IMG/VR virus record: IMGVR_UViG_3300047317_001031
Location: 1 to 64,000 of that record
DNA: 64,000 nucleotides
DNA from: a virus
Lineage: Duplodnaviria > Heunggongvirae > Uroviricota > Caudoviricetes
Strand: one strand, 5' to 3'
Below are positions 1,458 to 50,773 of the stretch, in pieces. The translations under genes and the position numbers were made by a program. The number at the start of each line of letters is the position of its first letter. The stretch's first letter is position 1. The notes under the pieces are model-generated. The model was not told the DNA's origin and searched no databases. It was given only the letters and a program-made list of their open reading frames with translations.

Positions 1458-1462
1458 TCATG

Positions 1463-1555
1463 GGCGAGTAGCTCAGAGAAAGAGCGGCGTTGAAAAACGC
1501 GTTAGAGTTTTCCCTGAAATTCTAGATGGAGTAGGGGGAAATGGCGGGGGTTTAA
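1463..1555 (+). ncRNA. tRNA-like RNA lacking a canonical anticodon arm
   Basis: 5' gggcgag plus D-arm gctc-agagaaa-gagc and 3' T-arm ggggg-tttaatt-ccccc plus tttgccc-t-CCA pair as a tRNA frame. The anticodon position holds a GNRA-tetraloop hairpin gcgtt-GAAA-aacgc followed by a ~35-nt insertion. Confidence 0.4.
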
Positions 1556-1583
1556 TTCCCCCTTTGCCCTCCAAAATCATTAT

Positions 1584-2339: not shown

Positions 2340-3062
2340 ATCGTATATTGCATGTTTACATAATCGTGCCGGCGAGCCGGATGAGAACGGTTATCTTTAG
2401 GGAAGATAAGGGTCGGGTTCAAATCCCGATGCGCTTCGTAAGAGGCGTATAGTGTAGTGGTAGCACGTAACCCCGTTTTCGACTTTTCGCCCGTTGGTGC
2501 CAAAGTTTTAGGAGTGCGCCGGATGAAGATGGTTAACTAGCAAGCAACGGGTCGCGGGTTCGATCCCCGCCATCGCCCTCACGGGAGGTGTAGCTCAGTG
2601 GTAGAGCAGTCGCATAAATCGCCATCCTCAAACTTTTCGCCCACTCCTCCGATTTCGGGAGCGAGCCGGATGACGAAGGTTCTCTTCGAACGATCTCCTT
2701 CATCAAACTTTTCGCCCGCTCCACCAACCTTTTGAGAACGAGCCGGATGGGTCAACGGTTATCGGATAAAAAGCCGGTCCTTGTGATTGGTTTGAAAGAC
2801 GGTTCAATCCCGTCGCCCGTTCCCGAAACTTCGCCCGTTCTATCATACCCCCAGAGTGAGCCGACTTGGAACGGTTATCTTGGTTCGATTCCGAGGGCAC
2901 CAACCGGGGGAAACCTCGTAAGAGCCCTGCTCAAATTGGCGAGCGCTCCGTTCTGAACCATTCGCCCACTCTGCATCATTTTACGTCCCGCCGAGCCGGA
3001 GACGATGGGTTATCTGCCAAATACGACCCCATCGTTATCATTTCGCCCGGCGGGCTCTGGAG
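2340..3062 (+). ncRNA. array of about 6 degenerate tRNA-like repeat units (candidate Y-RNA/YrlA-like RNAs)
   Basis: Recurring modules: tagtgtagtggtagcac and tagctcagtggtagagca D-arm-like segments, T-arm-like ggttcaaatcc, ggttcgatcc and ggttcaatcc, a conserved gagccggatg box (6 copies) and an AACTTTTCGCCC box (6 copies). No unit folds into a complete canonical cloverleaf by eye. The region lies directly upstream of the Ro60/Rsr gene. Confidence 0.35.
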
Positions 3063-3069
3063 ATTCCCC

Positions 3070-4773
3070 ATGCATTTAGCCGAACTTGGTCATCGCTTTG
3101 ACGCAACGCCGCAAACGGAGCAAGCAGATCCGCGCGAGGTCCAAAATAACGCCGGAGGGTTCGTCTTCGCGGTAGATGAATGGACGCGCCTGGATAGATT
3201 CTGCATTCTCGGAACTGCGGAACCGACGTATTACACGGATGCGCGCAAGCTTACGAAAGATAACTTTGCACACGTCAGCGTAATGATTAAAGCGCATGGC
3301 GTCGACGTCGTGAAGCGTGTCGTTGATATTTCCGTTTCCGGGCGTGCGGCGAAACAAGAATACGCGATCTTCGTTCTCGCCATGTGTGCGGGAGCCGAGG
3401 ATGTTGATGTCCGTCGTGCCGCACTTGACGCGCTGCCGAAGGTGTGTCGTACGGGTTCGACGTTGCTTTTGTTTGCGTCGTACGTTGAGCAGTTCCGCGG
3501 ATGGGGTCCGACTCTTTGTGACGGCATCCGAAATTGGTATAACGGAAAGGACGTGTCGGATCGTCTTGCTTACCAGGTTTTGAAATATCAGAACCGTTAT
3601 GGCTGGACGCATCGGGATCTGCTTCGTTTGGCGCATGTGAATCCGATCGTGACGGGAGAACCAAGCACGTTCAACTCAACGGAAGTTAAGCCTTATTCCC
3701 TTACATCCGAGCGTGATCGTCTTTATGCTTGGATTACGGGAAAGAAGGACGCGCCCACGACGTACGACCTTCCGATCATCGTAAAGGTATACGAACGCGC
3801 ACATGCGGCCAAGGAAATTGATTTCGAGTCGCTTGATGATCTCACGCATGAGATGATTCCGACCGATTGGAAAAAGAGCGGCGACGTTTGGACGAAGTTG
3901 TTGGGGAGAATGCCTCTCACGGCGATGATCCGCAACTTGGCGACCATGACCGTTTCGGGTGCGCTTGCTCCTGGCTCTCCAGGGGCGCATCGTGTGGTTT
4001 CTGCCTTGGGCGATGCGGAACACCTTCGCAAGTCTCGTGTCCATCCTGCGGCGATTCTCACGGCTTTGGCGGTGTATCGTTCGGGCAAGGGCATCAAGGG
4101 ATCGCAGACATGGATTCCGACTCCTGAAGTCGTGCAGGCGCTTGATGCGGCATTCTACCTCGCATTCCCGAATGTCGTACCTGCCGGCAAGCGTACGTTA
4201 ATCGGTTTGGACGTATCGGGATCAATGGAATTTCCGCTTAGTGCGCTTCCTGCATTGTCGTCTCGTGAGGCGACTGCGGCGCTCGCAATGCTTATGGTCG
4301 CGACGGAGCCGGAAGTCCAGGTTTACGGATTCACGGCGAACGAACGTGGATACGGCGGTCATTGGAGCAAGGGCGAGCCGAATATGACGCAGATCCCGAT
4401 GCATCGCGGACAGCATATCCCTGACGTATGTTCGTACGTAGCGCGCCTACCCATGGGCGGAACGGATTGTGCCACGCCGATGAACTACGCCCTCGCGAAT
4501 CGTATTCCCGTGGATACGTTCGTCATCATGACTGATAATGAAACGTGGGCTGGGAATATCCATCCGATGGAGGCGCTCCGCAAGTATCGCCGGGAAATGG
4601 GAATTCCGGCACGGCTTGCGGTGATTGGAACGACTGCGACGGAATTCTCAATCGCAGATCCAGACGATGCGGGAACTATGGATTTCGTCGGCTTTGATGC
4701 GGCGCTACCGATCATGCTCAACGACTTCTCGCGCGGTGGTCCGCATCCTCACGAAGTTGAAAACGAAGGCTAA
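3070..4773 (+). CDS. rsr: Ro60/Rsr ortholog (TROVE domain plus C-terminal vWA)
   Basis: N-terminus MHLAELGHRFDATPQTEQ...NNAGGFVFAVDEWTRLDRFCILGTAEPTYY matches the conserved Ro60/Rsr TROVE N-terminus. C-terminal vWA MIDAS motif LIGLDVSGSM. GGAGA RBS 7 nt upstream of the ATG at 3070. The ORF-track start at 2866 lies inside the tRNA-like repeats and is rejected. Confidence 0.8.
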   Translation: MHLAELGHRFDATPQTEQADPREVQNNAGGFVFAVDEWTRLDRFCILGTAEPTYYTDARKLTKDNFAHVSVMIKAHGVDVVKRVVDISVSGRAAKQEYAIFVLAMCAGAEDVDVRRAALDALPKVCRTGSTLLLFASYVEQFRGWGPTLCDGIRNWYNGKDVSDRLAYQVLKYQNRYGWTHRDLLRLAHVNPIVTGEPSTFNSTEVKPYSLTSERDRLYAWITGKKDAPTTYDLPIIVKVYERAHAAKEIDFESLDDLTHEMIPTDWKKSGDVWTKLLGRMPLTAMIRNLATMTVSGALAPGSPGAHRVVSALGDAEHLRKSRVHPAAILTALAVYRSGKGIKGSQTWIPTPEVVQALDAAFYLAFPNVVPAGKRTLIGLDVSGSMEFPLSALPALSSREATAALAMLMVATEPEVQVYGFTANERGYGGHWSKGEPNMTQIPMHRGQHIPDVCSYVARLPMGGTDCATPMNYALANRIPVDTFVIMTDNETWAGNIHPMEALRKYRREMGIPARLAVIGTTATEFSIADPDDAGTMDFVGFDAALPIMLNDFSRGGPHPHEVENEG

Positions 4774-4775
4774 AC

Positions 4776-4808
4776 AAAGCGCGTCTCAAACGAGGCGCGC
4801 TTCTTTAC
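4776..4808 (+). terminator. rho-independent terminator after rsr
   Basis: Hairpin agcgcgtctc-aaac-gaggcgcgct followed by ttcttt. Confidence 0.5.
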
Positions 4809-4814
4809 TATGGA

Positions 4815-5618
4815 GTGAAAATGCTTCCTCTCTGTGATCCGAAGCGATATCCGTTACTCGAAGAATACAAATATCCGCTCCTCTTCGTTACGATAAGCGG
4901 TTCGCATCTCTACGGGTTTTCCTCACCGGATTCCGATATCGACCTTCGCGGGGCTCATGCCGCATGGACGGAAGAGCTCGTCGGACTTTGTACGCCGAAA
5001 CAAACCCTTGAGCGCATGGAGGGCGATAACGATATTGTTACGCATGAGATCGGGAAGTTTTGTTTACTTGCGTTGAAAAATAGCGGATATTGCCTTGAGC
5101 AAGCGATGTCCCCGCTCGTCGTTATCACGTCCGGATGGTTTGCGGATCTCCGAGAAATACTTCCTCGTTGCGTTACGAAGAAGCATACGAAGCATTACCT
5201 CGGCTTCACGAATTCGCAGCTTTCGATTTTGCGACGGAAACCTGATAAGCAGATCAAGGTTATCTTGTATATGTTTCGTGCGCTCATGACGGGCATTCAC
5301 TTTGCTCGTACGAGACAGGTCGAAGCAAATATCCTCACCCTCAACGAGACGTTCAAGTTCACGTTCATTGACGAATTGGTGCGTGAGAAAATCGAGGGGA
5401 AGGAGAAGGCGGAATTAGCGGCGGGACATTCGCTTGAATTTTACATGCGAGAACAAGAGCGCCTTCTTGCTCAACTTGAATGTGAGATTTCCGCCTCTAG
5501 TTTGCCGGAAGAACTCCCCGATACCGTCATGGCGGAATTGAATAGACTTCTCATCCGTTTACGCCGGTTTCATTGGAAGAACCCGCTTCCCGGCGGAGGG
5601 ATCATCCTCGCTCGGTAA
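4815..5618 (+). CDS. Pol-beta superfamily nucleotidyltransferase (RlaP/YcgL-like, RNA-repair-associated type)
   Basis: N-terminal minimal nucleotidyltransferase signature VTISGSHLYGFSSPDSDIDLRG (GS...SDxD). Sits next to rsr. Confidence 0.5.
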   Translation: MKMLPLCDPKRYPLLEEYKYPLLFVTISGSHLYGFSSPDSDIDLRGAHAAWTEELVGLCTPKQTLERMEGDNDIVTHEIGKFCLLALKNSGYCLEQAMSPLVVITSGWFADLREILPRCVTKKHTKHYLGFTNSQLSILRRKPDKQIKVILYMFRALMTGIHFARTRQVEANILTLNETFKFTFIDELVREKIEGKEKAELAAGHSLEFYMREQERLLAQLECEISASSLPEELPDTVMAELNRLLIRLRRFHWKNPLPGGGIILAR

Positions 5619-5707
5619 AGCGCTTGACAACTTTGGGAATTTCATGGTTGGGTATGGATAGGCGACCCGCAAAGAGCGAACATCGCCGATCCGCATGGGA
5701 GTCATGC

Positions 5708-6793
5708 ATGAGCACGAAAGAATTCGACCTTCTCGTTTTCGTTGGCCGCTTTCAGCCGCCGCATCTCGGGCATCTTGCCGTTATTGAAGAGGCGCTCCGG
5801 CACTCTCAGAAATTACTCATTCTCGTAGGTTCTGCTAATCGTAGCCGGAGTTTACGTGATCCATTCTCGTTTGAGGAGCGGGCCGAAATGCTTCGTGCGA
5901 TGACGGGAGAAATACGAAAGAACGAATGCGGGATACTTGACATACGCCCCCTCAATGATCATCTCTATAATGATCCCGCATGGATCGAAGAAGTCCAGTC
6001 CAAGGTAACGGAAAGTCTTTCGTATATTCCTGGAGAGAAGAAGCGCGTCGGGATCATCGGCCATGCGAAAGATCATACCTCGTACTACCTTCGCGTTTTC
6101 CCTGGCTATGAGTGCGTTGATGTTGAGGGATATCATTCTCCGAATGTGGGGCTCCTGAATTCCACGATGATCCGTGAACTCGCATATGATTTTCTGACGA
6201 ATCAGGGAAATCGCGGTTGGGATTTATTCCATTTTCAGGACTATCTTCCCGAGCAAATGATCCGGCATTTCCAATATGCTTTAAAGTCGCCCGATATGCG
6301 CGGCGTAATCGCGGAGGCGGAATTCGTGAAGCGTTATAAGGACCAATGGAAATTTGCTCCGTATAAGCCGACCTTCAATACCGTAGATGCGGTCGTGCAG
6401 TGCTGTGGGCACGTTTTGATGGTCATGCGCGGCGAACAGCCTGGGGCTGGGAATTTCGCGCTTCCAGGCGGGTTTATAGGGCAAAATGAGCCGCTTCTCG
6501 ACGCCTGCATACGTGAACTTTTCGAAGAGACGCAGATTTCGGTTCCCCGCCCGGTTGTTCTGGGTTCATTGCATCGTCGTGAGGCGCGCGTGTTTGATGA
6601 TCCGCATCGTTCATCCCGCGGGCGCACGATCACGCATGCCTATCGTTTTGACCTTGCCGACAAGGAACTGCCAAGGGTCCGAGGCGGAGACGATGCGGCG
6701 GCGGCAATGTGGATTCCGATTAACGCCGTCAAACCGGAGAAGACCTTTGAGGACCACGCCTTCATCATCCGCGCCATGTTAGGGGTTTCGTAG
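5708..6793 (+). CDS. bifunctional NMN adenylyltransferase / Nudix ADP-ribose pyrophosphatase (NadM-Nudix, NatV-like)
   Basis: Start is the ATG at 5708, in frame within ORF 5573..6793. N-terminal rossmann HxGH motif FVGRFQPPHLGHLAVI. C-terminal Nudix box GNFALPGGFIGQNEPLLDACIRELFEETQI. Confidence 0.85.
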   Translation: MSTKEFDLLVFVGRFQPPHLGHLAVIEEALRHSQKLLILVGSANRSRSLRDPFSFEERAEMLRAMTGEIRKNECGILDIRPLNDHLYNDPAWIEEVQSKVTESLSYIPGEKKRVGIIGHAKDHTSYYLRVFPGYECVDVEGYHSPNVGLLNSTMIRELAYDFLTNQGNRGWDLFHFQDYLPEQMIRHFQYALKSPDMRGVIAEAEFVKRYKDQWKFAPYKPTFNTVDAVVQCCGHVLMVMRGEQPGAGNFALPGGFIGQNEPLLDACIRELFEETQISVPRPVVLGSLHRREARVFDDPHRSSRGRTITHAYRFDLADKELPRVRGGDDAAAAMWIPINAVKPEKTFEDHAFIIRAMLGVS

Positions 6794-8205
6794 TGTTGAA
6801 TCCGTTGCTTGCCGTTGACTCCTACAAGTCAAGCCATTTTCTCCAGTACCCGCCTGGGACAACGCGCGTCTCTTCATATATCGAATCGCGCGGAGGACCG
6901 TTCAAGGCTTCACGGTTTTTCGGCTTACAGGGGATTATCAAGAAATACCTCATTGATTCTTTTGATGAGGAAGGCGTTAATCGCGCTAATCTCCTGTTTA
7001 ATAACCATGGATTGCCTTTCAATGACAAATGGTATGAATTGTCACGCAGGCGTAAACATGACGGGAAGTTTGCTTTCCCTATAGAAATCCAAGCGGTTCC
7101 CGAGGGCATGGATATTCCCACCGGAAACGTTCTCATGCAGGTCGTCAATACCGATCCAGAGTTCGCATGGCTCACGTCGTACGTCGAAACGCTCTTGATG
7201 CAGGTGTGGTATCCGACGACGGTTTGTACGTTGAGTGCAGAGATTCGTGCAATTCTCATGGAGCGACTTGAAGAAACGTGCGATGATCCGAAGTCGGTTA
7301 TCCCGTTCCTCTTGCATGACTTCGGCTGCCGCGGAGTATCCTCAATGGAGTCAGCAGGGATCGGGGGATTAGGGCATCTCGTGAATTTCCGTGGTACGGA
7401 TACGATTCCGGCACTTGTTGAAGGTCAGGAGTATTATCACGAACCTATGGCTGGATTCTCAATTCCGGCGATGGAGCATTCAACCGTAACGGCATGGGGT
7501 CGCGATGGCGAAGCGAGAGCGTTTCGTAATATGCTCCAACGTTTCGGCGGACCAGGCAAGACACTGGCTATGGTTGTGGATTCGTATGACCTTTTTCATG
7601 CGGTTCGCTGCATAGTCGGCGATGAACTAAAGGATGAAATTATCAATAGCGGTTCGCGCGTCGTCGTACGCCCCGATAGCGGTGATCCACGCGTGATCGT
7701 TCCTAAAATTCTGCGTATCCTCAACGATTGTTTTGGAGGCGAAAATAACCATAAGGGCTATCGTGTACTTCATCCTGCCGTGCGTGTGATCCAAGGAGAC
7801 GGTATGGATATTGAATCCATTCGTGAAACAGGCGATGCAGTATGCGCTGCCGGTTTCTCGACGGAGAATGTTACATACGGCCTCGGCGGCGGATTGCTTC
7901 AGAAAGTCCATCGCGATACGGGGAAGTTTGCGATGAAGGCTTCGGCGATCGAGATTGACAGCATATGGTACGACGTTTACAAAGATCCTTTGACAGATCC
8001 CGAAAAACGTTCAAAGCGCGGAAGATTAGCGCTCATATGCTATGGACAAGAATGGAACGACTATAAGGTGAAGACCGGCATCGAAACAGTCCGTATTGAG
8101 CAAATGCACGATCGCGAAAACCTCTTGCGCCCGGTATATCGTGACGGAGAACTTCTCATTGATGATCCGCTTGAAACGATTCGGCGGCGCGCAGGGACCC
8201 TCTAA
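6793..8205 (+). CDS. nadV: nicotinamide phosphoribosyltransferase (Nampt/NadV)
   Basis: N-terminus NPLLAVDSYKSSHF is the conserved NadV start. Length 470 aa. GTG start overlaps the upstream stop codon by 1 nt. Confidence 0.85.
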   Translation: MLNPLLAVDSYKSSHFLQYPPGTTRVSSYIESRGGPFKASRFFGLQGIIKKYLIDSFDEEGVNRANLLFNNHGLPFNDKWYELSRRRKHDGKFAFPIEIQAVPEGMDIPTGNVLMQVVNTDPEFAWLTSYVETLLMQVWYPTTVCTLSAEIRAILMERLEETCDDPKSVIPFLLHDFGCRGVSSMESAGIGGLGHLVNFRGTDTIPALVEGQEYYHEPMAGFSIPAMEHSTVTAWGRDGEARAFRNMLQRFGGPGKTLAMVVDSYDLFHAVRCIVGDELKDEIINSGSRVVVRPDSGDPRVIVPKILRILNDCFGGENNHKGYRVLHPAVRVIQGDGMDIESIRETGDAVCAAGFSTENVTYGLGGGLLQKVHRDTGKFAMKASAIEIDSIWYDVYKDPLTDPEKRSKRGRLALICYGQEWNDYKVKTGIETVRIEQMHDRENLLRPVYRDGELLIDDPLETIRRRAGTL

Positions 8206-8225
8206 ACGAGAAGGAGTGCCCCTCT

Positions 8226-8254
8226 TGTCTTCGGCATCGCGCCTGCTATACTGT
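8226..8254 (+). promoter_or_regulatory. candidate sigma70 promoter (TTGTCT-N16-TATACT)
   Basis: Hexamers read directly from sequence upstream of the Pth2-like gene. Confidence 0.3.
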
Positions 8255-8300
8255 GGTCATGTTGTAGATTGATCATAAGCCGTCGCCCGAGCAGCAGTAT

Positions 8301-8594
8301 GTGTACGTCCTGGTTCGCACGGATATCCCTCTCCGGCAACAACTCGTTCAAAGCGTACATGCGGGAATCCAGGCAACGGCGCTCTTCCCGTCCCGCGAAC
8401 CTTGGCTCGTGGTCTGCGCTGTTCCCGATGCGGCAACGCTTAGACGCGCAAAAGAAGATCTTGCCGAATCCGATATTGATTCCGCGCTTTTTTATGAGCC
8501 TGATAACGAACTCGGATATACGGCCCTGGCGACGGCGCCGATTACCCGTGAGAAACGAAAAGTTCTTAGCAGGTATCCGCTATGGTCCGAATAA
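8301..8594 (+). CDS. peptidyl-tRNA hydrolase PTH2-like protein
   Basis: MYVLVRTDIPL...VQSVHAGIQAT resembles the PTH2 core VxVRxDL...AQxxHA. About 97 aa. Confidence 0.5.
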   Translation: MYVLVRTDIPLRQQLVQSVHAGIQATALFPSREPWLVVCAVPDAATLRRAKEDLAESDIDSALFYEPDNELGYTALATAPITREKRKVLSRYPLWSE

Positions 8595-8601
8595 GAAGTA
8601 T

Positions 8602-8693
8602 GCGGGAGCGTCTCCGCCGTGATCGTGCCCTCGGCGCGTTCATAGCGGAATGGGGCGGAAACCGGATCGTTGGTTCAAATCCAACTTCCCGCA
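8602..8693 (+). ncRNA. tRNA-like element (possible long-variable-arm tRNA)
   Basis: Acceptor gcgggag/ttcccgc pairs perfectly and the T-arm gttgg-ttcaaat-ccaac is clean. D-arm and anticodon arm are not canonical by eye. Confidence 0.3.
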
Positions 8694-8702
8694 CCGAATC
8701 TT

Positions 8703-8777
8703 GCCGGCCTAGCTCAAAGGCAGAGCATCGAACTCTAAAATCGAGGGATGCGGGTCCGATTCCCGTGGCCGGCACCA
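8703..8777 (+). tRNA. suppressor tRNA, anticodon CUA (reads UAG)
   Basis: Acceptor gccggcc/ggccggc-a-CCA, D-arm gctc-aaaggca-gagc, anticodon stem tcgaa/atcga (31-39 A-A) with loop ctCTAaa (U33, A37), T-arm gcggg-tccgatt-cccgt. Confidence 0.7.
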
Positions 8778-8778
8778 T

Positions 8779-8853
8779 GCCGAAGTAGCTTAACGTTAGA
8801 GCATCGCGGGTCACCCTGCGAGGGACGTGGTTCAATTCCATGCTTCGGCACCA
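8779..8853 (+). tRNA. tRNA with non-canonical (8-nt) anticodon loop, identity unresolved
   Basis: Acceptor gccgaag/cttcggc-a-CCA, D-arm gctt-aacgtta-gagc, T-arm cgtgg-ttcaatt-ccatg. Anticodon stem tcgcg/tgcga leaves loop ggtcaccc. Confidence 0.55.
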
Positions 8854-8932
8854 TCGGGGCTCTTGGGGAAACCCTGGAGCCTCGGCCATTCCCCCCTTCT
8901 CTTCCTTCCTCCATGCGTGATACGATTTTCGC

Positions 8933-9715
8933 ATGCATACATCCATACCCGTCCCCGGCATAACCTTCCGCGATGCGGCGAAGGTCGCGCCCCCATCCAC
9001 GGATGCGATCCCCAAGCCCATAGCGATATCAATGCTCCTTGATCGCTCCGGTTCGATGCACTCAATTAAGGAATCCACGATCGCCGGTATGAACACGTTC
9101 ATGGAGTCGCAGAAGAAACACGGCATCCCGACGACGTTTTCATTGACGCTATTTGATGAAAATCACGGACTCCAGTTGGATCACGTCATTACGAACGCAT
9201 CAATCGAAGGCATTAAGCCGTTGGATGATTTCTCTCCGCGTGGGATGACCCCATTGTTTGATGCGTTTTGGGATACGATTTCATGGTTTGAGGAGCAAAC
9301 GAATGGGAAGAACGTTCGCGTTTTGTTCGTCGTCATCACTGATGGAGAAGAGAATGCGAGCACGCGCCATAAATCCTCAGAACTCAAAGAACGCGTATCG
9401 CAGAAGACGGCTCAAGGATGGGAATTCGTCTATCTCGGAGCAAATCAAGATGCGTTTGCCGTCGGTGCTTCAATGGGGATTGCTGCGGGGAATACTATGT
9501 CATATCAGGCAACCCCACAAGGCGTGATGAGAGCTTCCTCTATGACGACGAAGAACTCCATCGCCTATGCGAACGCTGGAGATTCCTATAAGACCGGGAA
9601 TTTTTTCAACGGGCAAAATGTTGAAGTTGATAGATCCGTATCAATCCCCATGAGTTCCGTCGTTGATCCGCAGCAGCCGGATGCGAGCGGCCTTTCCTGG
9701 CAGAGTAAGCACTAA
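8933..9715 (+). CDS. vWA domain protein
   Basis: MIDAS motif LLDRSGSM near the N-terminus, later TDGEEN; vWA fold signature. Confidence 0.65.
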   Translation: MHTSIPVPGITFRDAAKVAPPSTDAIPKPIAISMLLDRSGSMHSIKESTIAGMNTFMESQKKHGIPTTFSLTLFDENHGLQLDHVITNASIEGIKPLDDFSPRGMTPLFDAFWDTISWFEEQTNGKNVRVLFVVITDGEENASTRHKSSELKERVSQKTAQGWEFVYLGANQDAFAVGASMGIAAGNTMSYQATPQGVMRASSMTTKNSIAYANAGDSYKTGNFFNGQNVEVDRSVSIPMSSVVDPQQPDASGLSWQSKH

Positions 9716-15690: not shown

Positions 15691-17514
15691 ATGCTTAAAG
15701 CGAAGGCGCGTGATGCGTCTGAGGAATCACCGACAGAAGGGCGCTTCGTTCATGAAGTTCCTTTCGTCGTTGATTTTGATGCGGATCGCGAGATTCGTCT
15801 TCGCTTTGAAGTCGCGCGGAAAATTTATAATGCTTTGCTAGGAGAAGCACTTCGTCGCGTTCGTCGCGTTCGTCATGCGATGCGTCAGCATTATCCTGTT
15901 TTTCAGAAATGCAAGGCTGAAGCGACCCTAGCGATTACGGAAAACGAACTTCATCCGGCGAGCCTTGCGGCACGAAAGATCACTAAAAAGGCATATTCGC
16001 CGTACAATGAACTTCGTAAACCATTACTACGCGAATATGGATGCTCTCGATTCGGCCTGTCCGCATATGGAACGAAGCTCTCGCGTGATACGCCGTTATG
16101 GGCGCGACAACATGCGATAGGAGCGACGGTCGTCCAGGAACTTGTTCGGCGTGCATGGTTGACTGCTGAAAAGAATCTCCTTAACCCGCGGATTAAGTGT
16201 AAGTTCATGCGGTACGGAGAACTACGTAGCGTCGAATCCATGAACGAAGCGGATGCTATACGCATTGCCGATGATAGAATCATTTGGTCTTCCGGCAAAG
16301 GCGGCGGCGTTATCTCCATGCGGATGCGCCTTGATCGCAAGGGCCGTGACTGGGTAGAGTATTTCGCCTCTTATGCGGAGATCATTAAGACGCGTCTTGT
16401 CCGTCGCGATATCAACGGCAGGAAGCGCGGAGCGGCGCAGATTGTGCTTGCCGGCGATCCCGTTGATCGTCCCTGGATTACTACGATTCCCGGCGACGAT
16501 ATTGGGATTGATCTTGGCCTTTCCGTCGTCGCGATCGATTCTGATTCTGAGAGCGCAATATATTCCCTTACCACGGTAACTCCTGAGCAGCGCGCGGAAC
16601 TTGCGCTCAAGCAACGGCGTACGAACCGTGCTTTAGATCGCTCTCGCCGTGCATCCAATCCCGATAAGTATGATGAAAAGGGACGGGCTCTCCACCGCAG
16701 AACGCACAAGCGGCTTAAGACTGAGAGCGCCCCTCGTCTACGGTGGAATTTCTCAACGGCATATAGGCAGATGAAGGCTGATTATGCTGAAGCCTCGCGG
16801 ATTGTTACTGAGCGGCGCAAGAACGCAACGCGTACGCTCGTAAATCATATCGCTACGCTTGGGAATGTCGCCGTTATCGAGAACCTGTCGCTACAAAAAT
16901 GGCAACAGGAGTACGGTAAAGCAACGGGATTTGCGCCGGGGGAATTCACCGCAGCGCTTGATCGGCGTATGAAATCCCTTAACGGCGATCTGCATAAGAT
17001 TCCCGCGCATACCGCGAAGCTTTCGCAGTTTTGCATTGCGTGTGGAGTATACGAAAAAAGAGATTTTGAGATTCGCGTTCTTGAGCGACGGCAACGTTGT
17101 TCGTCCTGCGGGTCCAATCAGGGCGGCGTGCAAGCCGACTTGGTTCAAGCTTTCCTCGCGCGGCATGTTCGTGTCGAGGGAACTATCGACGTTAGTCAAG
17201 CTCAAAAGGCTTGGCCGGGTGCGAGCATGCGCCTAGGTTCGGCATCGTCGGTAGTAAAAAACGCAGCAAAGACCGTGCTTGCGCGGTCGCGTCGGTGGAG
17301 AAATCGGCTGGCGGCAGAGCAGCGTGCCGTACAAAGCGGATCAGCATCGCCCCTAGGTCCCGAGTCCTTGTGTCTTGGGAAGCGCGGCGAAAGCGTCTCC
17401 GTCAAAGTCCCTATTGATCTTCGAGCGGCCAGGTGGGGCTCGCCTCGTGCTGGCCCGCTCGATCCTGCTACGATAAGGAAAAAGCGACCTCCTCGTTCCG
17501 TTCCCATTGGTTAG
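15691..17514 (+). CDS. TnpB/Cas12-like RuvC nuclease, putative compact type V CRISPR effector
   Basis: TnpB-like N-terminus (RFVHEVPFVVDF...RKIYNALL), RuvC-I DIGIDLGLSVVAI, RuvC-II VAVIENLSLQKW, zinc finger CIACG...CSSCG, RuvC-III QADLVQAFLARHV. The last ~110 aa are low-complexity and Arg-rich. A CRISPR array begins 53 nt downstream. Confidence 0.75.
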   Translation: MLKAKARDASEESPTEGRFVHEVPFVVDFDADREIRLRFEVARKIYNALLGEALRRVRRVRHAMRQHYPVFQKCKAEATLAITENELHPASLAARKITKKAYSPYNELRKPLLREYGCSRFGLSAYGTKLSRDTPLWARQHAIGATVVQELVRRAWLTAEKNLLNPRIKCKFMRYGELRSVESMNEADAIRIADDRIIWSSGKGGGVISMRMRLDRKGRDWVEYFASYAEIIKTRLVRRDINGRKRGAAQIVLAGDPVDRPWITTIPGDDIGIDLGLSVVAIDSDSESAIYSLTTVTPEQRAELALKQRRTNRALDRSRRASNPDKYDEKGRALHRRTHKRLKTESAPRLRWNFSTAYRQMKADYAEASRIVTERRKNATRTLVNHIATLGNVAVIENLSLQKWQQEYGKATGFAPGEFTAALDRRMKSLNGDLHKIPAHTAKLSQFCIACGVYEKRDFEIRVLERRQRCSSCGSNQGGVQADLVQAFLARHVRVEGTIDVSQAQKAWPGASMRLGSASSVVKNAAKTVLARSRRWRNRLAAEQRAVQSGSASPLGPESLCLGKRGESVSVKVPIDLRAARWGSPRAGPLDPATIRKKRPPRSVPIG

Positions 17515-17566
17515 ATCCTTGAAAACTGAAGGTGCTCGAAAATCCTGCGGGAACCCATGCGGTGCT

Positions 17567-18922
17567 ATCGCAACGAGGATCAGATCTCAGGGACGATGCG
17601 AGCACGACCTCAAGCGCCTATGCGAGCTACGGGGGTGGACAATCGCAACGAGGATCAGATCTCAGGGACGATGCGAGTTTCATAATCGCCGAAATCCCAA
17701 GCGTTCCATGGGGAAATCGCAACGAGGATCAGATCTCAGGGACGATGCGAGCGTGTACGTGATGCACTCGGAGCTTCCTTCCCACTGATCGCAACGAGGA
17801 TCAGATCTCAGGGACGATGCGAGCAAGAAACTCAGGCGGCGTGCGAGCGAAGCCCACGCCATCGCAACGAGGATCAGATCTCAGGGACGATGCGAGCTGA
17901 GCGATAAAAGCGAGCGCTTCGGCGGTCCCTGCATCGCAACGAGGATCAGATCTCAGGGACGATGCGAGGTAAGCATGCGGGTATCGAGCGTCAATGCGTA
18001 CAACCATCGCAACGAGGATCAGATCTCAGGGACGATGCGAGAAGATGTCAGGAATTCCGCCTTGTCTCTCGGGATGCACATCGCAACGAGGATCAGATCT
18101 CAGGGACGATGCGAGGCGGAGATTTGCAAAAATTTTCGCGAGCGCTTTTGATCGCAACGAGGATCAGATCTCAGGGACGATGCGAGCATAGTGCCGTGCG
18201 ACTAGTAGCCGTGCGAGTATCAAGATCGCAACGAGGATCAGATCTCAGGGACGATGCGAGTAATGGAAGGGCGTGGCGTATGTGCGGAGAGCTATATTGC
18301 AACGAGGATCAGATCTCAGGGACGATGCGAGGTGGATGGGCATTCCACTCCGTATAGAGCTGTGCTACTCGTCGTAGTGACGATCAGATCTAAGGGACGA
18401 TGCGAGCCATAACGTGATGTGGCCGGAATCCATACAAGGCGTCGTAGCGACGATCAGATCTAAGGAACGATGCAAGCGTTTAGCGTTTTAGGATGTGGAG
18501 AAGCGCGTCTCCGTCGTAGCGAGGATCAGATCTAAAGGACGATGTGAGTAAAGGATTCATAGTGCATAGGGACGATGCGAGTGTGGTACGACAAAAAAAT
18601 CTGGGAGGAAAGTTCGGCATCGTAGCGGGGATCGGATCTAAGGGACGATGCGAGACGTATATTTCGGAAGCGGTTGCCAATTTCCCCATTGATCGTAACG
18701 AGGATCAGATTCTAAAGGACGATGCGAGCTTGGAATCCGCAGCGGGTCGAGCAGCGCATTGGTCGCGTCATAGCGAGGATCGGATCTCAGGGACGATGCA
18801 AGTTGATTGGCTGGGTTCGGCACGATATTCCAAGATAGACGTCGCAACAAGGATCAGATCTCAGGGACGATGCGAGTGAGCGACAAACAGGCGGATGCTA
18901 AGATCAAAGGGGACGATGCGAG
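17567..18922 (+). CRISPR. CRISPR array: 11 conserved 36-nt repeats plus about 8 degenerate repeats
   Basis: Repeat ATCGCAACGAGGATCAGATCTCAGGGACGATGCGAG at 17567, 17642, 17716, 17788, 17861, 17933, 18006, 18080, 18151, 18225, 18296. Unique spacers of 35-39 nt. Repeats degenerate progressively from 18371 to 18922 (gtcgtagtgacgatcagatctaagggacgatgcgag etc.), placing the leader at the cas-proximal end. Confidence 0.9.
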
Positions 18923-21758: not shown

Positions 21759-22223
21759 ATGATTGAATATTCGAATGGCGATATTTTCACAAGCGGAGCC
21801 GAGGCGATCGTGAACCCCGTGAATTGCGTGGGCATCATGGGCGGGGGATTAGCGGCGGATTTCAAGGCACGTTTCAAGGGGAACTACCAAAGATATCGAC
21901 GCGCCTGTGATGCAGAAGAAGTCAAGCCTGGGGAGATGTTCATTATTGAAGAGATTGTCGCTGGAACTCGTACTGTTATTTTCAATTTCCCGACGAAATT
22001 CCACTGGCGAAACGATAGCAAAATAGAATGGATCGAATCCGGGCTTCGCGCGCTCGTGGAAGAAGTGAAAAAGCGTGAGATAAAGTCCATCGCGATCCCG
22101 GCCCTCGGATGCGGCCTCGGCGGATTAAAGTGGAACGACGTGCGCCCGCTTATCGAAGGCGCCGGGAAGATGATCCCGGAAGTTCGCGTTATCATTTTCC
22201 CGCCGAAGGAAAATCATGACTAA
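21759..22223 (+). CDS. macrodomain protein (ADP-ribose binding/hydrolase)
   Basis: GDIFTSGAEAIVNPVNCVGIMGGGLAADF matches the macro domain N-terminal signature. Confidence 0.7.
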   Translation: MIEYSNGDIFTSGAEAIVNPVNCVGIMGGGLAADFKARFKGNYQRYRRACDAEEVKPGEMFIIEEIVAGTRTVIFNFPTKFHWRNDSKIEWIESGLRALVEEVKKREIKSIAIPALGCGLGGLKWNDVRPLIEGAGKMIPEVRVIIFPPKENHD

Positions 22224-27419: not shown

Positions 27420-27752
27420 ATGAAATGGCCTTTTTCGCGGAAATCGGAAAAAAATTCCGTGCCCGAGGAAATCCCTAGTCCGACTCCGCCGGTTCGGACT
27501 CTTGACGATGTTTTCAGTTCCGTCGTGCGTGATATGAAATTAGGCCGTCTTTCTTGCGGAGATCGAGAATTCATAAAGAGGATGACGACTTCTATGGATG
27601 AAGGCAAAAGAGGCGCTATTTTCATCTTAAATGAAGACGATAGTTTAGACTACCTTATAGCGAATGATACTTATTCCGGAGCCATTGAACTTTTTGGAAG
27701 AATGTCCATGAGATCCGCGAGAGAAATTCAAAAAAACGGGAAGGACTCATAG
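27420..27752 (+). CDS. hypothetical protein
   Basis: Intact ORF ending in TAG, in the same frame as the next gene. Confidence 0.3.
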   Translation: MKWPFSRKSEKNSVPEEIPSPTPPVRTLDDVFSSVVRDMKLGRLSCGDREFIKRMTTSMDEGKRGAIFILNEDDSLDYLIANDTYSGAIELFGRMSMRSAREIQKNGKDS

Positions 27753-47497: not shown

Positions 47498-48097
47498 TCA
47501 TGCGTAGCCCATCCGGTCGCACATGCTCTCACATGCTCGGCACAGGCGATCCGGCGCATCCCATTGCATAGCGCTGATGCATTCGCGGGGGGACGTGCAA
47601 TACTTGGACGGCGGCCCTGCATTTGAGGCGGAGGAAGGCGTGGTTTTGCGTTCAGTCGCGTATTCTTGGAGCTTGCGTAAGCTCATTGCGGAACGGTATC
47701 GCTTCTCAATTTGCACGGAGGCACGCTCGGCGAAAAACGTCTTTGATCCGTCGCGGAATAGCAGGCGAACCCAATCACCTTTAGCCGATGTTCCCTCGCC
47801 TACAAAATAATAGCTTTTGCCGTCTTTTTTCGCTGTGCCGAGGATATTCTCTCGATCACGCTCCAATCGCTCCGCATCTTGATCGGCCTTCACTTTTTCC
47901 GCCACGGCGGGATTCGTGAGACGGGCAACGAGCGCGTCCGCCTCATCATGCTTCCCGATCCACCATGCGCGACGATCACCGTCCCAATGCGCACCGGCAT
48001 CTTTAATCGCGGATTTGAAAGCGAATGTATTGCCCAGAATGTAGGAGCGACGGCCTTCACGGCTAACGGTAATACTCATGGGTTCGAGCCTCCTCAA
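47498..48097 (-). CDS. hypothetical protein
   Basis: Intact ORF about 50 nt downstream of promoter copy D. Confidence 0.4.
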   Translation of the reverse strand: MRRLEPMSITVSREGRRSYILGNTFAFKSAIKDAGAHWDGDRRAWWIGKHDEADALVARLTNPAVAEKVKADQDAERLERDRENILGTAKKDGKSYYFVGEGTSAKGDWVRLLFRDGSKTFFAERASVQIEKRYRSAMSLRKLQEYATERKTTPSSASNAGPPSKYCTSPRECISAMQWDAPDRLCRACESMCDRMGYA

Positions 48098-48152
48098 GCG
48101 GTTCGGATCAGAGGCCGAGCGTTACGAGCGCTGCGGCCTCGTTTGTGTTCTC

Positions 48153-48181
48153 ATTATGTCATAGTCACGAAGCGGAGTCAA
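48153..48181 (-). promoter_or_regulatory. repeated sigma70 promoter, copy D (TTGACT-N17-CATAAT)
   Basis: Read directly. Confidence 0.5.
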
Positions 48182-48611
48182 GGGGTTTGAGGAAAGTTTT
48201 TCGAAAGACGTAAGGCCAAAGCATAGCCCTTCCCAACAAGAAAAAGGCCGTCTCACCCGATCGGCTACGCTCGACCTAATACCCCAACCATGCGAGAACG
48301 AGGGAACCTTCATATTTCGCATGGTCCCCGTGATCGCGAACGAACGATTCCCAGGAAATGCCGCTTCCTTCGTGCTTCTCGATTTCACGATGGGCTTCGG
48401 CAGCGCTTATCGTCGCTTCGCATGCCTCATCATAATTCATTTCCTGCCCCTTTTGCTTTTAGCATGGCGATAAACGTTTCCGCTTCCTCAAGGCTTTTAA
48501 CGCGCTTCCATTCCTGAAGGGATACGTACTTATTCCCCGTTGCCCATGATGCATTGATGTTCGCTTCGCGAGCAAGGGCTAGGATCTTTTTCGCTTCAGA
48601 AGTCTTCATAG

Positions 48612-49136
48612 TTACGCTATAATCCCCGCAAATAGTTCATCAAAGTATGCAAGCATTTCAGGATTACGCGCGCCGAGCAAAGCCCGGTCGGCAATCATCG
48701 TCGGCATCCCGCCGTTCTCGCCAAGATACGCACGGAAGCACTCTGCGAAAAATTCATCGACGCCGGCAGTCGCGTAAAATGTTACAAATTGAAGAGCGCT
48801 ATGAAACGCGTTTAGAATTTTTGCAGTATACCCTGATACGTAGAATCCTTTCCCAAGCGCACAATCTAATGCATGACCCAGTTCGTGAGCGATAACCCCG
48901 CGCTCCAATCTGCGAACGTAAACCGTGCGTTCCCGAACCACGAACAACCCGGAAGGCTTCATTCCATCAATATCTATATGCAAGTTTGATAATTCTTTCG
49001 AAGCCGTTTTGAAGGTTTCATCAGGCGCTAATACCCGCACGACTATTCCCTGTTCGTCCAACAATTCCACAATATGGGCAGGCAAGGTTTTAATTACTCC
49101 CAGAACCGTTTCGTTTTCGTGATTTAGCAGTCCCAT
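48612..49136 (-). CDS. HExxH zinc metallopeptidase-like protein (ImmA/IrrE-type candidate)
   Basis: VIAHELGHALD motif. Confidence 0.45.
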   Translation of the reverse strand: MGLLNHENETVLGVIKTLPAHIVELLDEQGIVVRVLAPDETFKTASKELSNLHIDIDGMKPSGLFVVRERTVYVRRLERGVIAHELGHALDCALGKGFYVSGYTAKILNAFHSALQFVTFYATAGVDEFFAECFRAYLGENGGMPTMIADRALLGARNPEMLAYFDELFAGIIA

Positions 49137-49174
49137 GTCGTCCCTCTCGAAGCTTTGTTGTACTCTGTGCGTTT

Positions 49175-49203
49175 ATATTATCATTATATACACACACAGT
49201 CAA
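49175..49203 (-). promoter_or_regulatory. repeated sigma70 promoter, copy E (TTGACT-N17-TAATAT)
   Basis: Read directly. Confidence 0.5.
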
Positions 49204-49504
49204 GCCCCCACGCGCACAAACTTTCTACTTCGTACCGATTGCGAGAAAAGCAGCATGGCCCTTAACGGAATCCCTATGACCCATGAATGCCCCCCGGCCA
49301 TGAGGGATCGACTCGAAAGGTTCTGCTTCTTTCAACGCCTAGGAATGAGCGTCGTCATACAACGAGCGCTCGAAAATCTTTTCGAAAAATACAAAGACGA
49401 TAAAAAACTTGCAGCCGTCATGATCCCATACCTCTTCGCTAACGGATACGGCATACGCAAAATTGGATACGAACGACAAGTGAAAGCAGAACAATTCAAA
49501 AAAT

Positions 49505-50329: not shown

Positions 50330-50773
50330 TAAGTTCCAACTGGTTTGCATTAACTTAGGAAAGATAGAATGAAAAGTAACCCAATGCCGCAGAAGGTAAC
50401 TTTGTATTTTGAAGACGTTGCAAGAGAATTTCGCACGTTAGCAATTGGACAAGGTTACGATGCGACAAAATACCCAAGCCGAGGCGTGAGGGTACATGCC
50501 TACCATGATCGCGTGAAGTTTCGGTTACGCGATAACTGGAACGTTCTCCGCATGGGAATTTTCGTCGTTGACGAGAGCTTTACGCTAAAAATTCTTGCAT
50601 ACGAACTTGCCGCGCGGATCTTCAACGAACTCCAACAGCGCGCGTATGTCGTGGAACCGGGTACGCAGCCGAAGCAATTCCGGGAGCAGGAAGCCTTGCT
50701 CCGTCCCGCCCCATGAAGAACGCCTAATCTTTCGAGCATAACTTTTCCATAGACGGTCGTTGTTTATTTTGTT

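What the first reader, a model, noticed from the sequence alone, without database searches (positions are those of the whole stretch)
8703..8777. Apparent amber-suppressor tRNA (anticodon CUA) in the element's tRNA set
A clean cloverleaf (acceptor, D-arm and T-arm all pair) carries the anticodon loop cuCUAaa with U33 and A37, so the anticodon reads UAG. Phage-encoded suppressor tRNAs are associated with stop-codon recoding (TAG to sense) or with late-gene control. In this window TAA and TGA dominate as stops and TAG is rare: it occurs at nadM (6791), the nuclease gene (17512) and 27750. Partial or late-stage recoding elsewhere in the genome is conceivable.
Basis: seen in the sequence. Interest (0 to 1): 0.6.

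Follow-up and report, generated by a model that had tools for sequence, protein, structure and literature searches.

The report
Amber-suppressor tRNA in a standard-code phage
A well-formed tRNA gene whose anticodon reads the stop codon UAG sits in a 129-kb, tRNA-rich phage genome that uses the ordinary genetic code throughout, so it belongs to a known but functionally unexplained class of phage suppressor tRNAs and is not a sign of a changed genetic code.

Summary
ARAGORN and Rfam both call a tRNA at 8703-8777(+) with anticodon CUA (8735-8737), U33, A37, G18G19 and an encoded CCA. Two deviations exist: C55 in the T-loop and an A31·A39 mismatch.

The recoding idea does not hold. I rebuilt the whole circular genome (128,791 bp) from near-identical public assemblies. 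Terminase, portal, major head, tape-measure, baseplate and tail-fibre genes are all uninterrupted under the standard code. The late block has 93-97% coding density. TAG ends 28 of 188 called genes (15%; 18 of 99 in the window), including DnaB and portal. The distance to the next in-frame stop is the same after TAG as after TGA or TAA.

The same situation is published for the standard-code phages XacN1 and RsoM2USA. More than 100 IMG/VR phage contigs carry CUA tRNAs with the same CUCUAAA loop. Both deviations recur in other phage CUA tRNAs, one of them in a clearly TAG-recoded contig, so neither marks a pseudogene.

Best reading: a functional general amber suppressor, probably charged with Lys (U35 + A73), whose benefit is unknown. 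The gene is flanked by two anticodon-less tRNA-like RNAs next to a Ro60/Y RNA/RlaP/NAD-salvage island. This is a new member of a known kind, of modest interest.

The parts
8703..8777 (+). tRNA gene with anticodon CUA (amber suppressor type). It is class I, 72 nt plus an encoded CCA, with discriminator A73.
   Evidence: ARAGORN; Rfam RF00005 59.3 bits, E 2.7e-10; identical in 5 assemblies.
8733..8739 (+). Anticodon loop CUCUAAA, with anticodon CUA at 8735-8737. A31 (8732) and A39 (8740) do not pair, so nine nucleotides are unpaired.
   Evidence: Sequence and Infernal alignment with the mismatch flagged. The same loop occurs in XacN1 tRNA-Sup and in 102 unique IMG/VR phage CUA tRNAs.
8754..8760 (+). 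T-loop UCCGAUU with C at position 55 instead of the near-universal U/pseudouridine.
   Evidence: Infernal alignment. The same T-arm occurs in CUA tRNAs of other IMG/VR contigs, one of them TAG-recoded.
8779..8853 (+). Tandem paralogue, 67% identical and 1 nt downstream. It is tRNA-like with a normal acceptor stem, T-arm and CCA. Its 18-nt anticodon arm folds as a 7-bp stem with a UCAC tetraloop (or an 8-nt loop GGUCACCC), and its D-loop lacks G18G19. It is probably non-decoding.
   Evidence: ARAGORN reports a 2-base anticodon; Rfam tRNA 48.7 bits; MFE fold z = -3.4; identity.
8602..8695 (+). tRNA-like RNA 7 nt upstream. It has an acceptor stem and a canonical T-arm (GUUGG UUCAAAU CCAAC), but one long irregular hairpin replaces the D and anticodon arms. 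There is no recognisable anticodon loop.
   Evidence: MFE fold. Only a weak tRNA-Sec-model match, 15.5 bits, E 4.8. Not called by ARAGORN.

Best explanation
This is a functional phage-encoded amber suppressor tRNA in a phage that keeps the standard genetic code.

Shown: a canonical class I tRNA gene with anticodon CUA, U33, A37, A38 and an encoded CCA lies in a tight three-gene cluster of tRNA-like RNAs. The cluster sits downstream of the NAD-salvage genes of a 128.8-kb tailed phage that carries about 34 sense tRNAs. The genome has no in-frame TAG in any recognisable gene and uses TAG as the terminator of 15% of its genes.

Inferred: the cluster is transcribed as one precursor and processed by host RNase P and 3' nucleases. 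The tRNA is charged by a host synthetase. By E. coli identity rules, U35 plus A73 with G1-C72 points to LysRS, with GlnRS as the alternative. The charged tRNA is delivered by EF-Tu and competes with RF1 at UAG. The outcome is partial, non-gene-specific read-through: short C-terminal extensions on a fraction of the products of the 28 TAG-terminated phage genes and of host TAG genes.

The selective benefit is not established. The published 'suppressor first' view is my preferred guess: a rare stop codon is buffered against amber mutations, which is also a pre-adaptation for recoding. Manipulation of host or rival-phage translation is the second guess.
For: Both predictors agree on a genuine tRNA with anticodon CUA.

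The loop CUCUAAA followed by A39 matches the two tRNA-Sup genes of the standard-code phage XacN1. It also matches 102 unique CUA tRNAs recovered from IMG/VR. Of those CUA tRNAs (119 counted before removing duplicates), 66% have A73 and 79% have G1-C72, as here.

The two apparent defects recur in other phage suppressors. A mismatched 31-39 pair occurs in 29 of 102 phage CUA tRNAs against 24 of 414 other tRNAs from the same loci (Fisher p = 1.7e-9). The C55 T-arm GGUCCGAUUCC occurs in CUA tRNAs of L102/L107, L103, L104 and probably the truncated L106, with different stem sequences that still pair. L104 is clearly TAG-recoded: an endolysin-like ORF with SpoIID, NlpC/P60 and PG_binding domains has 5-6 in-frame TAG, and a 956-codon ORF has 17.

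Published precedents exist. XacN1 has two CUA tRNAs, and in-silico read-through of its 18 amber stops found nothing (PMC5852040). RsoM2USA also carries one (PMC8504454). A standard-code close relative of TGA-recoded Agate phages carries a TGA-suppressor tRNA (10.1101/2021.08.26.457843).

Lys assignment: U35 and A73 are the lysine determinants identified with amber suppressors, and G73 shifts charging towards Gln (PMC9976931). The tRNA body is least like the Gln tRNAs in a nearest-neighbour comparison.

Standard code.
Against: No expression, charging or read-through data exist.

C55 removes the G18-Ψ55 tertiary contact, and A31·A39 cannot pair even as a wobble, unlike the common C·A.

The genome shows no accommodation to suppression. 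TAG terminates DnaB, the NadM-Nudix protein, portal and four other late genes. The distance to the next in-frame stop after TAG (median 10.5 codons) does not differ from that after TGA or TAA (12.5 and 13).

No read-through product with a meaningful extension was found. The two TAG stops followed in frame by the next gene (27750 and 37036) each precede a gene with its own RBS and ATG.

No relative of this phage was found, so conservation of this particular gene over evolutionary time is untested.

Its two immediate neighbours are degenerate tRNA-like RNAs, which is also what a decaying tRNA cluster would look like.

The amino-acid assignment rests on E. coli rules, and the host is unknown.
Confidence: 0.6

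Rival explanations
1. Neutral or decaying tRNA paralogue. A sense tRNA of the phage's large set was duplicated and its anticodon drifted to CUA. The gene is weakly active or inactive and is on the way to the state of its two anticodon-less neighbours.
For: C55 and the A31·A39 mismatch. The flanking genes 8602-8695 and 8779-8853 have lost a readable anticodon loop. The downstream one is a 67% identical paralogue. The phage's other tRNAs also carry many T-loop deviations. The genome shows no adaptation to read-through.
Against: The anticodon is exactly CUA in the CUCUAAA context shared by more than 100 phage suppressors. All four stems, G18G19, U33, A37 and the CCA are intact. Both 'defects' recur in other phage CUA tRNAs, including one in a recoded phage. 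The sequence is fixed in all sampled assemblies.
Confidence: 0.2
2. Non-decoding role. The CUA tRNA and the two flanking tRNA-like RNAs form an RNA module of the adjacent counter-defence island (Ro60, Y RNA, RlaP, NAD+ salvage). They would act as decoys or substrates for tRNA-targeting host nucleases or for the Ro60/RlaP RNA-repair machinery, not in translation.
For: The three RNAs are packed within 252 nt, about 400 nt downstream of the NAMPT gene. The island also holds Ro60 (TROVE + vWA), RlaP and a YrlA-like Y RNA. At least four anticodon-less tRNA-like RNAs exist in the genome: window 1462-1570, 8602-8695, 8779-8853 and L007 15293-15384. Phage tRNAs as countermeasures to anticodon nucleases are documented (PMC10264068, listed).
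Against: Nothing links a CUA anticodon to any known nuclease target. The gene keeps every feature needed for decoding, which a decoy would not need. The same kind of tRNA occurs in phages without Ro60, and in recoded phages it clearly decodes.
Confidence: 0.12
3. One reading: the phage reassigns TAG to a sense codon in part of its genome (late or structural genes), and this tRNA is the decoder.
For: Suppressor tRNAs are strongly associated with recoded phages (10.1101/2021.08.26.457843). TAG is the least used stop (15%).
Against: In the whole 128,791-bp genome, all large late genes are uninterrupted in code 11. Late-block density is 0.93-0.97. TAG stops make up 5 of 37 late genes and 23 of 151 others. 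TAG flanked by long same-frame ORFs is no commoner than TGA or TAA. No release-factor or aaRS domain appears among the Pfam hits listed for the called genes.
Confidence: 0.02
4. It is a pyrrolysine tRNA, which is ARAGORN's label.
For: ARAGORN labels any CUA tRNA 'Pyl'.
Against: The cloverleaf is canonical: 2 nt between the acceptor and D stems, a 7-nt D-loop with G18G19, a 5-nt variable loop, and an anticodon stem of 4-5 bp rather than 6. No pyl genes appear among the Pfam annotations of the genome.
Confidence: 0.01

Closest known systems
tRNA-Sup(CUA) genes of the standard-code jumbo phage XacN1 (AP018399, 36047-36122 and 36130-36205) and of Ralstonia phage RsoM2USA
   Same: All are tRNA-rich phages using the standard code. 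In each, a CUA tRNA is set apart from the main tRNA array, and in XacN1 it forms a tandem pair. The loop CUCUAAA, A39, a mismatched 31-39 pair, G1-C72 and (for XacN1 Sup1) A73 are shared. No identifiable read-through target was found.
   Different: Masked identity is only about 68%, so common descent is not shown. XacN1 has two intact copies; here the second copy has lost its anticodon loop. XacN1's copies look derived from its own tRNA-Lys (identical T-arm), which is not evident here. XacN1 has a canonical U55. XacN1 carries tRNAs for all 20 amino acids, whereas this phage lacks Trp and His.
Suppressor tRNAs of TAG-recoded (code 15) phages such as crAss-like, Lak and the IMG/VR contig L104
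   Same: Same anticodon and loop context. L104 shares the unusual C55 T-arm.
   Different: [quoted passage not shown] This genome has none and uses TAG as a terminator in 15% of genes.
Laboratory E. coli amber suppressors (for example su7 from tRNA-Trp, supE, and synthetic tRNA(CUA) sets)
   Same: The anticodon loop CUCUAAA is the same (su7 loop recalled from memory). The charging logic, U35 with A73 giving Lys and G73 giving Gln, comes from these suppressors (PMC9976931).
   Different: Those are single-mutation derivatives of host tRNAs. This one is a natural phage gene of unresolved isotype origin.
tRNA-Pyl
   Same: Anticodon CUA.
   Different: None of the tRNA-Pyl structural hallmarks is present, and there are no pyl genes.

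Membership tests
Canonical elongator tRNA (Rfam RF00005) | Cloverleaf scoring above the family's gathering score | tested here: met
   59.3 bits against a gathering score of 29, full-length model match. ARAGORN agrees.
Canonical elongator tRNA (Rfam RF00005) | Conserved core nucleotides U8, A14, G18G19, A21, U33, R37, G53-C61, U54, Ψ55, C56, A58 | tested here: inconclusive
   All are present except position 55, which is C. The same C55 T-arm occurs in CUA tRNAs of other phage contigs, one of them TAG-recoded.
Canonical elongator tRNA (Rfam RF00005) | 5-bp anticodon stem closing a 7-nt loop | tested here: not met
   Four pairs plus A31·A39. A mismatched 31-39 pair is 6-fold enriched among phage CUA tRNAs.
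Amber suppressor tRNA | Anticodon CUA at 34-36 with U33 and a purine at 37 | tested here: met
   Loop CUCUAAA at 8733-8739.
Amber suppressor tRNA | Aminoacylated and decodes UAG in vivo | not testable with these tools
   Needs tRNA-seq or acid gels, a reporter, or proteomics.
Stop-codon-recoded phage (TAG to sense, code 15) | In-frame TAG in conserved (structural or lysis) genes | tested here: not met
   Terminase, portal, major head, tape measure, baseplate J and the other long late genes are single uninterrupted ORFs.
Stop-codon-recoded phage (TAG to sense, code 15) | Low coding density under code 11, restored by reading TAG as sense | tested here: not met
   Late block density is 0.93-0.97 in code 11. 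The gain from TAG-as-sense is no larger than from TGA or TAA. The positive control L104 behaves as expected.
Stop-codon-recoded phage (TAG to sense, code 15) | TAG no longer used as a terminator | tested here: not met
   28 of 188 called genes end in TAG.
Stop-codon-recoded phage (TAG to sense, code 15) | Accessory code-change genes (RF2, aaRS); these are optional | tested here: not met
   No RF or aaRS Pfam family appears among the hits listed for called genes. Coverage of window 42-53 kb is incomplete.
Standard-code, tRNA-rich phage with tRNA-Sup (XacN1 / RsoM2USA type) | Large tRNA complement, a CUA tRNA, standard code, and no recognisable read-through target | tested here: met
   36 tRNA(-like) genes. 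Standard code. Extensions after TAG are short, or run into separately initiated genes. Published descriptions.
tRNA-Pyl | 6-bp anticodon stem, 3-nt variable loop, small D-loop without G18G19, and 1 nt between the acceptor and D stems | tested here: not met
   Canonical geometry.
YrlA-type Y RNA (considered because of the Ro60 context and a weak hit across 8742-8806) | Permuted tRNA-like domain closed by a Ro60-binding stem | tested here: not met
   The 19.7-bit hit (E 0.22) spans the T-arm and 3' acceptor strand of one tRNA and the 5' acceptor strand and D-arm of the next. It is an artefact of tandem tRNAs. The real YrlA-like RNA is at 2526-2631.

The most novel reading that the evidence does not exclude
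The CUA tRNA is not there for the phage's own genes. Together with the anticodon-less tRNA-like RNAs around it, it would form a co-transcribed RNA arm of the neighbouring counter-defence island (Ro60, Y RNA, RlaP, NAD+ reconstitution). It could act as a decoy or substrate for tRNA-directed host nucleases. Alternatively it could be a weapon that forces read-through of UAG-terminated host or rival-phage genes. A related possibility is that the 4-bp-stem/9-nt-loop architecture (N31·A39), which I find enriched in phage CUA tRNAs, is a selected device that tunes suppressor strength.
Probability: 0.1. Interest if true: 0.65.

Novelty: new member of a known kind. Interest (0 to 1): 0.3.

Why it matters
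It removes a tempting misreading. A suppressor tRNA in a phage window does not by itself indicate an alternative genetic code. Here the whole genome could be checked, and it uses the standard code. The case adds a well-documented example, from a phage lineage with no close relatives in the collections searched, to the unexplained class of standard-code phages that carry amber suppressors (XacN1, RsoM2USA). It also shows that two features which look like defects, C55 and an unpaired 31-39, recur in other phage suppressors. The open question of what an amber suppressor does for a phage that ends 15% of its genes with TAG can be tested directly on this system by proteomics or by deletion.

Tried and rejected
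**Searches for relatives**
- There is no close relative in INPHARED by DNA.
- tRNA BLAST gave only generic tRNA hits.
- The exact 25-mer of the anticodon arm is absent from IMG/VR.
- Searching with the neighbouring 260-aa vWA protein found no relative in IMG/VR, and NAMPT found only one distant locus without tRNAs.
- The single metagenome-contig scan, with a sugar epimerase, returned only cellular homologues at or below 40% identity. That collection does not hold this phage.

**Walking the genome**
- The look-up of encoding contigs refuses proteins that are not encoded in the window.
- Fusing far-end proteins into one homologous-protein query worked twice. It failed completely with a 1778-aa fusion.

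**Isotype origin**
- A pattern with a free anticodon hit only tRNA-Arg(UCU) genes in IMG/VR. However, A20 and C35, the Arg determinants (recalled from memory, not verified here), are absent in this tRNA, and converting the loop needs several changes.
- A nearest-neighbour comparison with 578 labelled tRNAs was undecided: Arg, Thr, Met, Gly and Lys scored 0.67-0.73 and Gln scored low.
- Derivation from the missing tRNA-Trp is rejected: the tRNA has G1-C72 and A73 and no Trp-like body.

**Other ideas rejected**
- C55 is not a hallmark of suppressors. The canonical U55 version is at least 20 times commoner.
- The YrlA hit at 8742-8806 is a tandem-tRNA artefact.
- The in-frame gene pairs across TAG at 27750 and 37036 are not programmed fusions, because each downstream gene has its own RBS and ATG.
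- The promoter/terminator scan of 8100-9100 gave one promoter-like site (8225-8252), which is no more than chance, and no terminator.

Full report
**1. The observation**

ARAGORN finds eight tRNA genes in the window. One is at 8703-8777(+) with anticodon cta; ARAGORN labels it 'Pyl' only because of that anticodon. Infernal with Rfam RF00005 scores 8703-8774 at 59.3 bits (gathering score 29, E = 2.7e-10 for the window). This lies in the middle of the range of the element's other tRNAs.

Reading the sequence against the Infernal alignment gives this layout:
- acceptor stem GCCGGCC/GGCCGGC, then U8 A9
- D-arm GCUC-AAAGGCA-GAGC, with G18G19
- A26
- anticodon arm UCGAA-CUCUAAA-AUCGA
- variable loop GGGAU
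- T-arm GCGGG-UCCGAUU-CCCGU
- A73 and an encoded CCA

The four pairs 27-43 to 30-40 fix the register, so CUA (8735-8737) cannot be shifted away. The 340 nt around the gene are identical in five independent assemblies.

**2. What the element is**

The window belongs to a tailed phage of about 129 kb. It was assembled several times in JGI metagenomes 3300046679, 3300048088, 3300046511 and 3300047444, and in Logan runs SRR26076581 and SRR26077922. It has no close relative in INPHARED or IMG/VR. Its terminase is at most 28% identical to any known one.

I reconstructed the whole genome by walking outwards with the look-up of encoding contigs. Protein ids came from fused-query homology searches and from exact cluster look-ups. 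The result is a composite that closes on itself at 128,791 bp with a 1,779-nt identical overlap; GC content is 0.51.

The genome has 36 tRNA or tRNA-like genes. A main array of about 30 lies just upstream of the window and in its first 2.4 kb. The CUA gene and its neighbour lie 6 kb further on. No tRNA-Trp, tRNA-His or tmRNA is found.

**3. Test of the recoding idea**

Gene calls supplied with the loci were made with the standard code. They give 188 genes with stops TGA 88, TAA 72 and TAG 28. Within the window the counts are TGA 48, TAA 33 and TAG 18. TAG is therefore not rare. It ends the genes for DnaB, the NadM-Nudix enzyme, the TnpB-like protein and portal.

The late block is at window-equivalent 68,986-101,699 and lies entirely on the + strand. 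It contains:
- sugar-modification genes
- terminase L, 651 aa
- portal, 545 aa
- major head protein, 467 aa
- a 641-aa protein
- tape measure, 747 aa
- baseplate J, 412 aa
- a 717-aa fibre-like protein

All are single ORFs. Coding density is 0.97 for 68,986-83,878 and 0.93 for the stretch from 68,986 to 108,401, which includes the late block.

Further tests agree:
- TAG stops make up 5 of 37 late genes and 23 of 151 others, which is no difference.
- TAG codons flanked on both sides by long same-frame ORFs are no more frequent than TGA or TAA.
- Reading TAG as sense lengthens ORFs no more than reading TGA or TAA as sense. The same measure picks out a truly recoded control contig, L104.
- The in-frame distance to the next stop after TAG (median 10.5 codons) equals that after TGA or TAA (12.5 and 13). 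There is neither back-up-stop enrichment nor a conserved extension.
- Two TAG stops (27750 and 37036) are followed in frame by the next gene. Each downstream gene has its own Shine-Dalgarno sequence and ATG within 10 nt.
- No release-factor or aminoacyl-tRNA-synthetase domain appears in the Pfam lists.

The recoding interpretation is therefore refuted for the whole genome. Two caveats apply. The genome is a composite of near-identical strains, and Pfam coverage of window 42-53 kb is partial.

**4. Is the tRNA likely to work?**

The loop CUCUAAA followed by A39 is the context found in the two tRNA-Sup genes of XacN1. It is also found in every one of 102 unique CUA tRNAs that I pulled from IMG/VR, although that pattern fixed only the loop and the T-loop. 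Of the 119 CUA tRNAs counted before removing duplicates, 66% have A73 and 79% have G1-C72, as here.

The unpaired 31-39 position is not peculiar to this gene. 29 of 102 phage CUA tRNAs have a non-pairing 31-39 (26 are C·A), against 24 of 414 other tRNAs from the same loci. The odds ratio is 6.5 and p = 1.7e-9. XacN1's suppressors also have C31·A39, plus A27·C43.

The literature links opened anticodon stems to stronger stop-codon read-through, but those cases concern the top pair of the stem (PMC13092985).

The C55 T-arm GGUCCGAUUCC combined with the CUCUAAA loop occurs in six IMG/VR contigs. Four hits are called CUA tRNAs by ARAGORN (L102, L103, L104, L107; L102 and L107 are identical), a fifth (L106) is a truncated tRNA with the same arm, and the sixth (L105) has an aberrant loop. 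Their acceptor and anticodon stems differ but still pair. One of these contigs (L104, 33% GC) is plainly TAG-recoded. An endolysin-like ORF with SpoIID, NlpC/P60 and PG_binding_1 domains needs 5-6 TAG codons read through, and the next ORF has 17. C55 is therefore compatible with a working suppressor. It is a minority variant, since the U55 version gave at least 120 hits.

**5. Which amino acid?**

No isotype-specific models were available. Similarity to 578 ARAGORN-labelled tRNAs, with anticodons masked, is undecided. Arg, Thr, Met, Gly and Lys tRNAs score 0.67-0.73, and Gln tRNAs are among the least similar. A free-anticodon pattern of the anticodon arm hit only tRNA-Arg(UCU) genes. However, the Arg determinants A20 and C35 (recalled from memory) are absent here.

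By E. coli identity rules, U35 and A73 direct amber suppressors to LysRS, and G73 diverts them to GlnRS (PMC9976931). This tRNA has A73, G1-C72 and C2-G71. Lys is the best guess and Gln the alternative. This is inference, and the host is unknown.

**6. Surroundings**

The CUA gene is the middle member of three RNAs packed into 8602-8853.

The upstream RNA (8602-8695) has an acceptor stem and a canonical T-arm, but a long hairpin replaces the D and anticodon arms.

The downstream RNA (8779-8853) is a 67% identical paralogue. Its anticodon arm is an 18-nt hairpin, either a 7-bp stem with a UCAC loop or an 8-nt loop, and it has no G18G19.

Similar anticodon-less tRNA-like RNAs occur at 1462-1570, with a GAAA tetraloop in place of the anticodon loop and a roughly 45-nt insert, and upstream of the window at L007 15293-15384.

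The trio follows an island with these genes:
- a YrlA-like Y RNA at 2526-2631 (38.5 bits, below the gathering score of 69)
- Ro60 at 3070-4773
- RlaP at 4821-5618
- NMN adenylyltransferase-Nudix at 5708-6793
- NAMPT at 6793-8205

This context motivates the decoy or RNA-module rival explanation, but nothing ties a CUA anticodon to it.

**7. Comparison with what is known**

Standard-code, tRNA-rich phages with CUA tRNAs of unknown purpose are already described. XacN1 has two tandem copies, 18 amber stops examined and no target found. RsoM2USA has one. A standard-code close relative of TGA-recoded Agate phages carries a TGA-suppressor tRNA, which the authors read as a possible precursor state to recoding.

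In my local test, 43 of 73 IMG/VR loci around a CUA tRNA looked standard-coded, 1 looked recoded and 29 were unclear. This test is weak, because suppressors in recoded phages usually sit in standard-coded early regions.

The present gene is thus a new member of a known kind. What this work adds is a whole-genome demonstration that recoding is absent, and the finding that its two 'defects' recur among phage suppressors.

**8. Verdict**

The recoding interpretation is not supported.

The best explanation is a functional, general amber suppressor, probably Lys-inserting, in a standard-code phage, with an unknown benefit (confidence 0.6). The rivals are a decaying paralogue (0.2), a non-decoding RNA module (0.12), recoding (0.02) and tRNA-Pyl (0.01). 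Interest is 0.3.

Noticed in passing
window 2526-2631 (+), with a weaker partial unit at 2413-2466; Ro60 gene at 3070-4773; RlaP at 4821-5618: A YrlA-like Y RNA (permuted tRNA-like domain closed by a stem) lies directly upstream of a phage Ro60 (TROVE + vWA) gene and an RlaP nucleotidyltransferase. Rfam RF02553 gives 38.5 bits, below the gathering score of 69, with E 6e-7. The ARAGORN 'tRNA-Pro(agg)' at 2362-2437 is probably part of this Y-RNA region and not a tRNA.
   Followed up: partly
window 1462-1570, 8602-8695, 8779-8853; L007 15293-15384 (about 4.4 kb upstream of the window): Four tRNA-like RNAs keep the acceptor stem and T-arm but have the anticodon loop replaced by a closed hairpin (GAAA or UCAC tetraloop, or a long stem). 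Their role is unknown. They may be decayed tRNAs or non-decoding RNAs linked to the Ro60/Y RNA system.
   Followed up: partly
whole reconstructed genome (tRNA array at window -4441..2437, plus 8703-8853): The phage encodes about 34 sense tRNAs for 18 amino acids, but neither ARAGORN nor Rfam finds a tRNA-Trp or tRNA-His. A weak tRNA hit at 1674-1740 reads as Gly(UCC) with an aberrant D-arm.
   Followed up: partly
IMG/VR loci L102-L107 and L127-L246 (CUA tRNAs), compared with other tRNAs of the same loci: Phage CUA tRNAs are strongly enriched for an unpaired 31-39 position. It is mostly C31·A39, occurs in 29 of 102 against 24 of 414, with p = 1.7e-9, and A39 is present in 64%. This gives a 4-bp stem and 9-nt loop. 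XacN1's suppressors and the window's tRNA share the architecture. I do not know of a published description.
   Followed up: partly
L104 (IMGVR_UViG_3300021399_000301), tRNA at 5556-5630; ORFs 3702-5246 and 5667-8537: A 33% GC phage contig is clearly TAG-recoded. An endolysin-like ORF has 5-6 in-frame TAG and the next ORF has 17. Its only local tRNA is a CUA tRNA with the same unusual C55 T-arm as the window's gene.
   Followed up: yes
L123 7934-8000+ (Lacipirellula sp. MAG, contig of 5.2 Mb): A chromosomal class I tRNA with anticodon CUA and the same GGUCCGAUUCC T-arm sits next to tRNA-Ser(GCU) in a planctomycete genome. It is cut off by the end of the locus. Whether it lies in a prophage was not checked.
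   Followed up: no
window 5708-6793 and 6793-8205: A bifunctional NMN adenylyltransferase/Nudix gene and a NAMPT gene overlap by one base (TAGTG). From memory, this pair resembles the phage NAD+ reconstitution pathway that counters NAD-depleting defence systems.
   Followed up: no
window 59606-59953 and 60006-60326 (+): Adjacent small genes have Pfam hits to Tad4 and to the Acb2/Tad1 hairpin family, which are sponges for immune signalling nucleotides. The genome also has ParE/RelB-like pairs, an ArdC-N domain gene and a macro-domain gene (21759-22223).
   Followed up: no
window 15691-17514 (+) and 17515-18582: A 607-aa protein has weak OrfB_IS605/TnpB-type transposase matches. It is followed by about 1 kb without called genes that differs between assemblies, with an indel around 17602-18295. 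This could be the guide-RNA region of a TnpB-like nuclease.
   Followed up: no
L007 17471-19930 (window-equivalent -8987..-6528): A DNA cytosine methylase gene is interrupted by an intein with a LAGLIDADG homing endonuclease. Several free-standing HNH and GIY-YIG endonuclease genes differ between strains.
   Followed up: no
window about 48000-50400: GC drops to 0.46, and the two 128.8-kb JGI contigs have ends elsewhere, one at window position 49968. The 274-aa gene at 49505-50329 is found whole only on a short contig. A serine recombinase (50774-51463) and an AntA/ANT gene follow.
   Followed up: no
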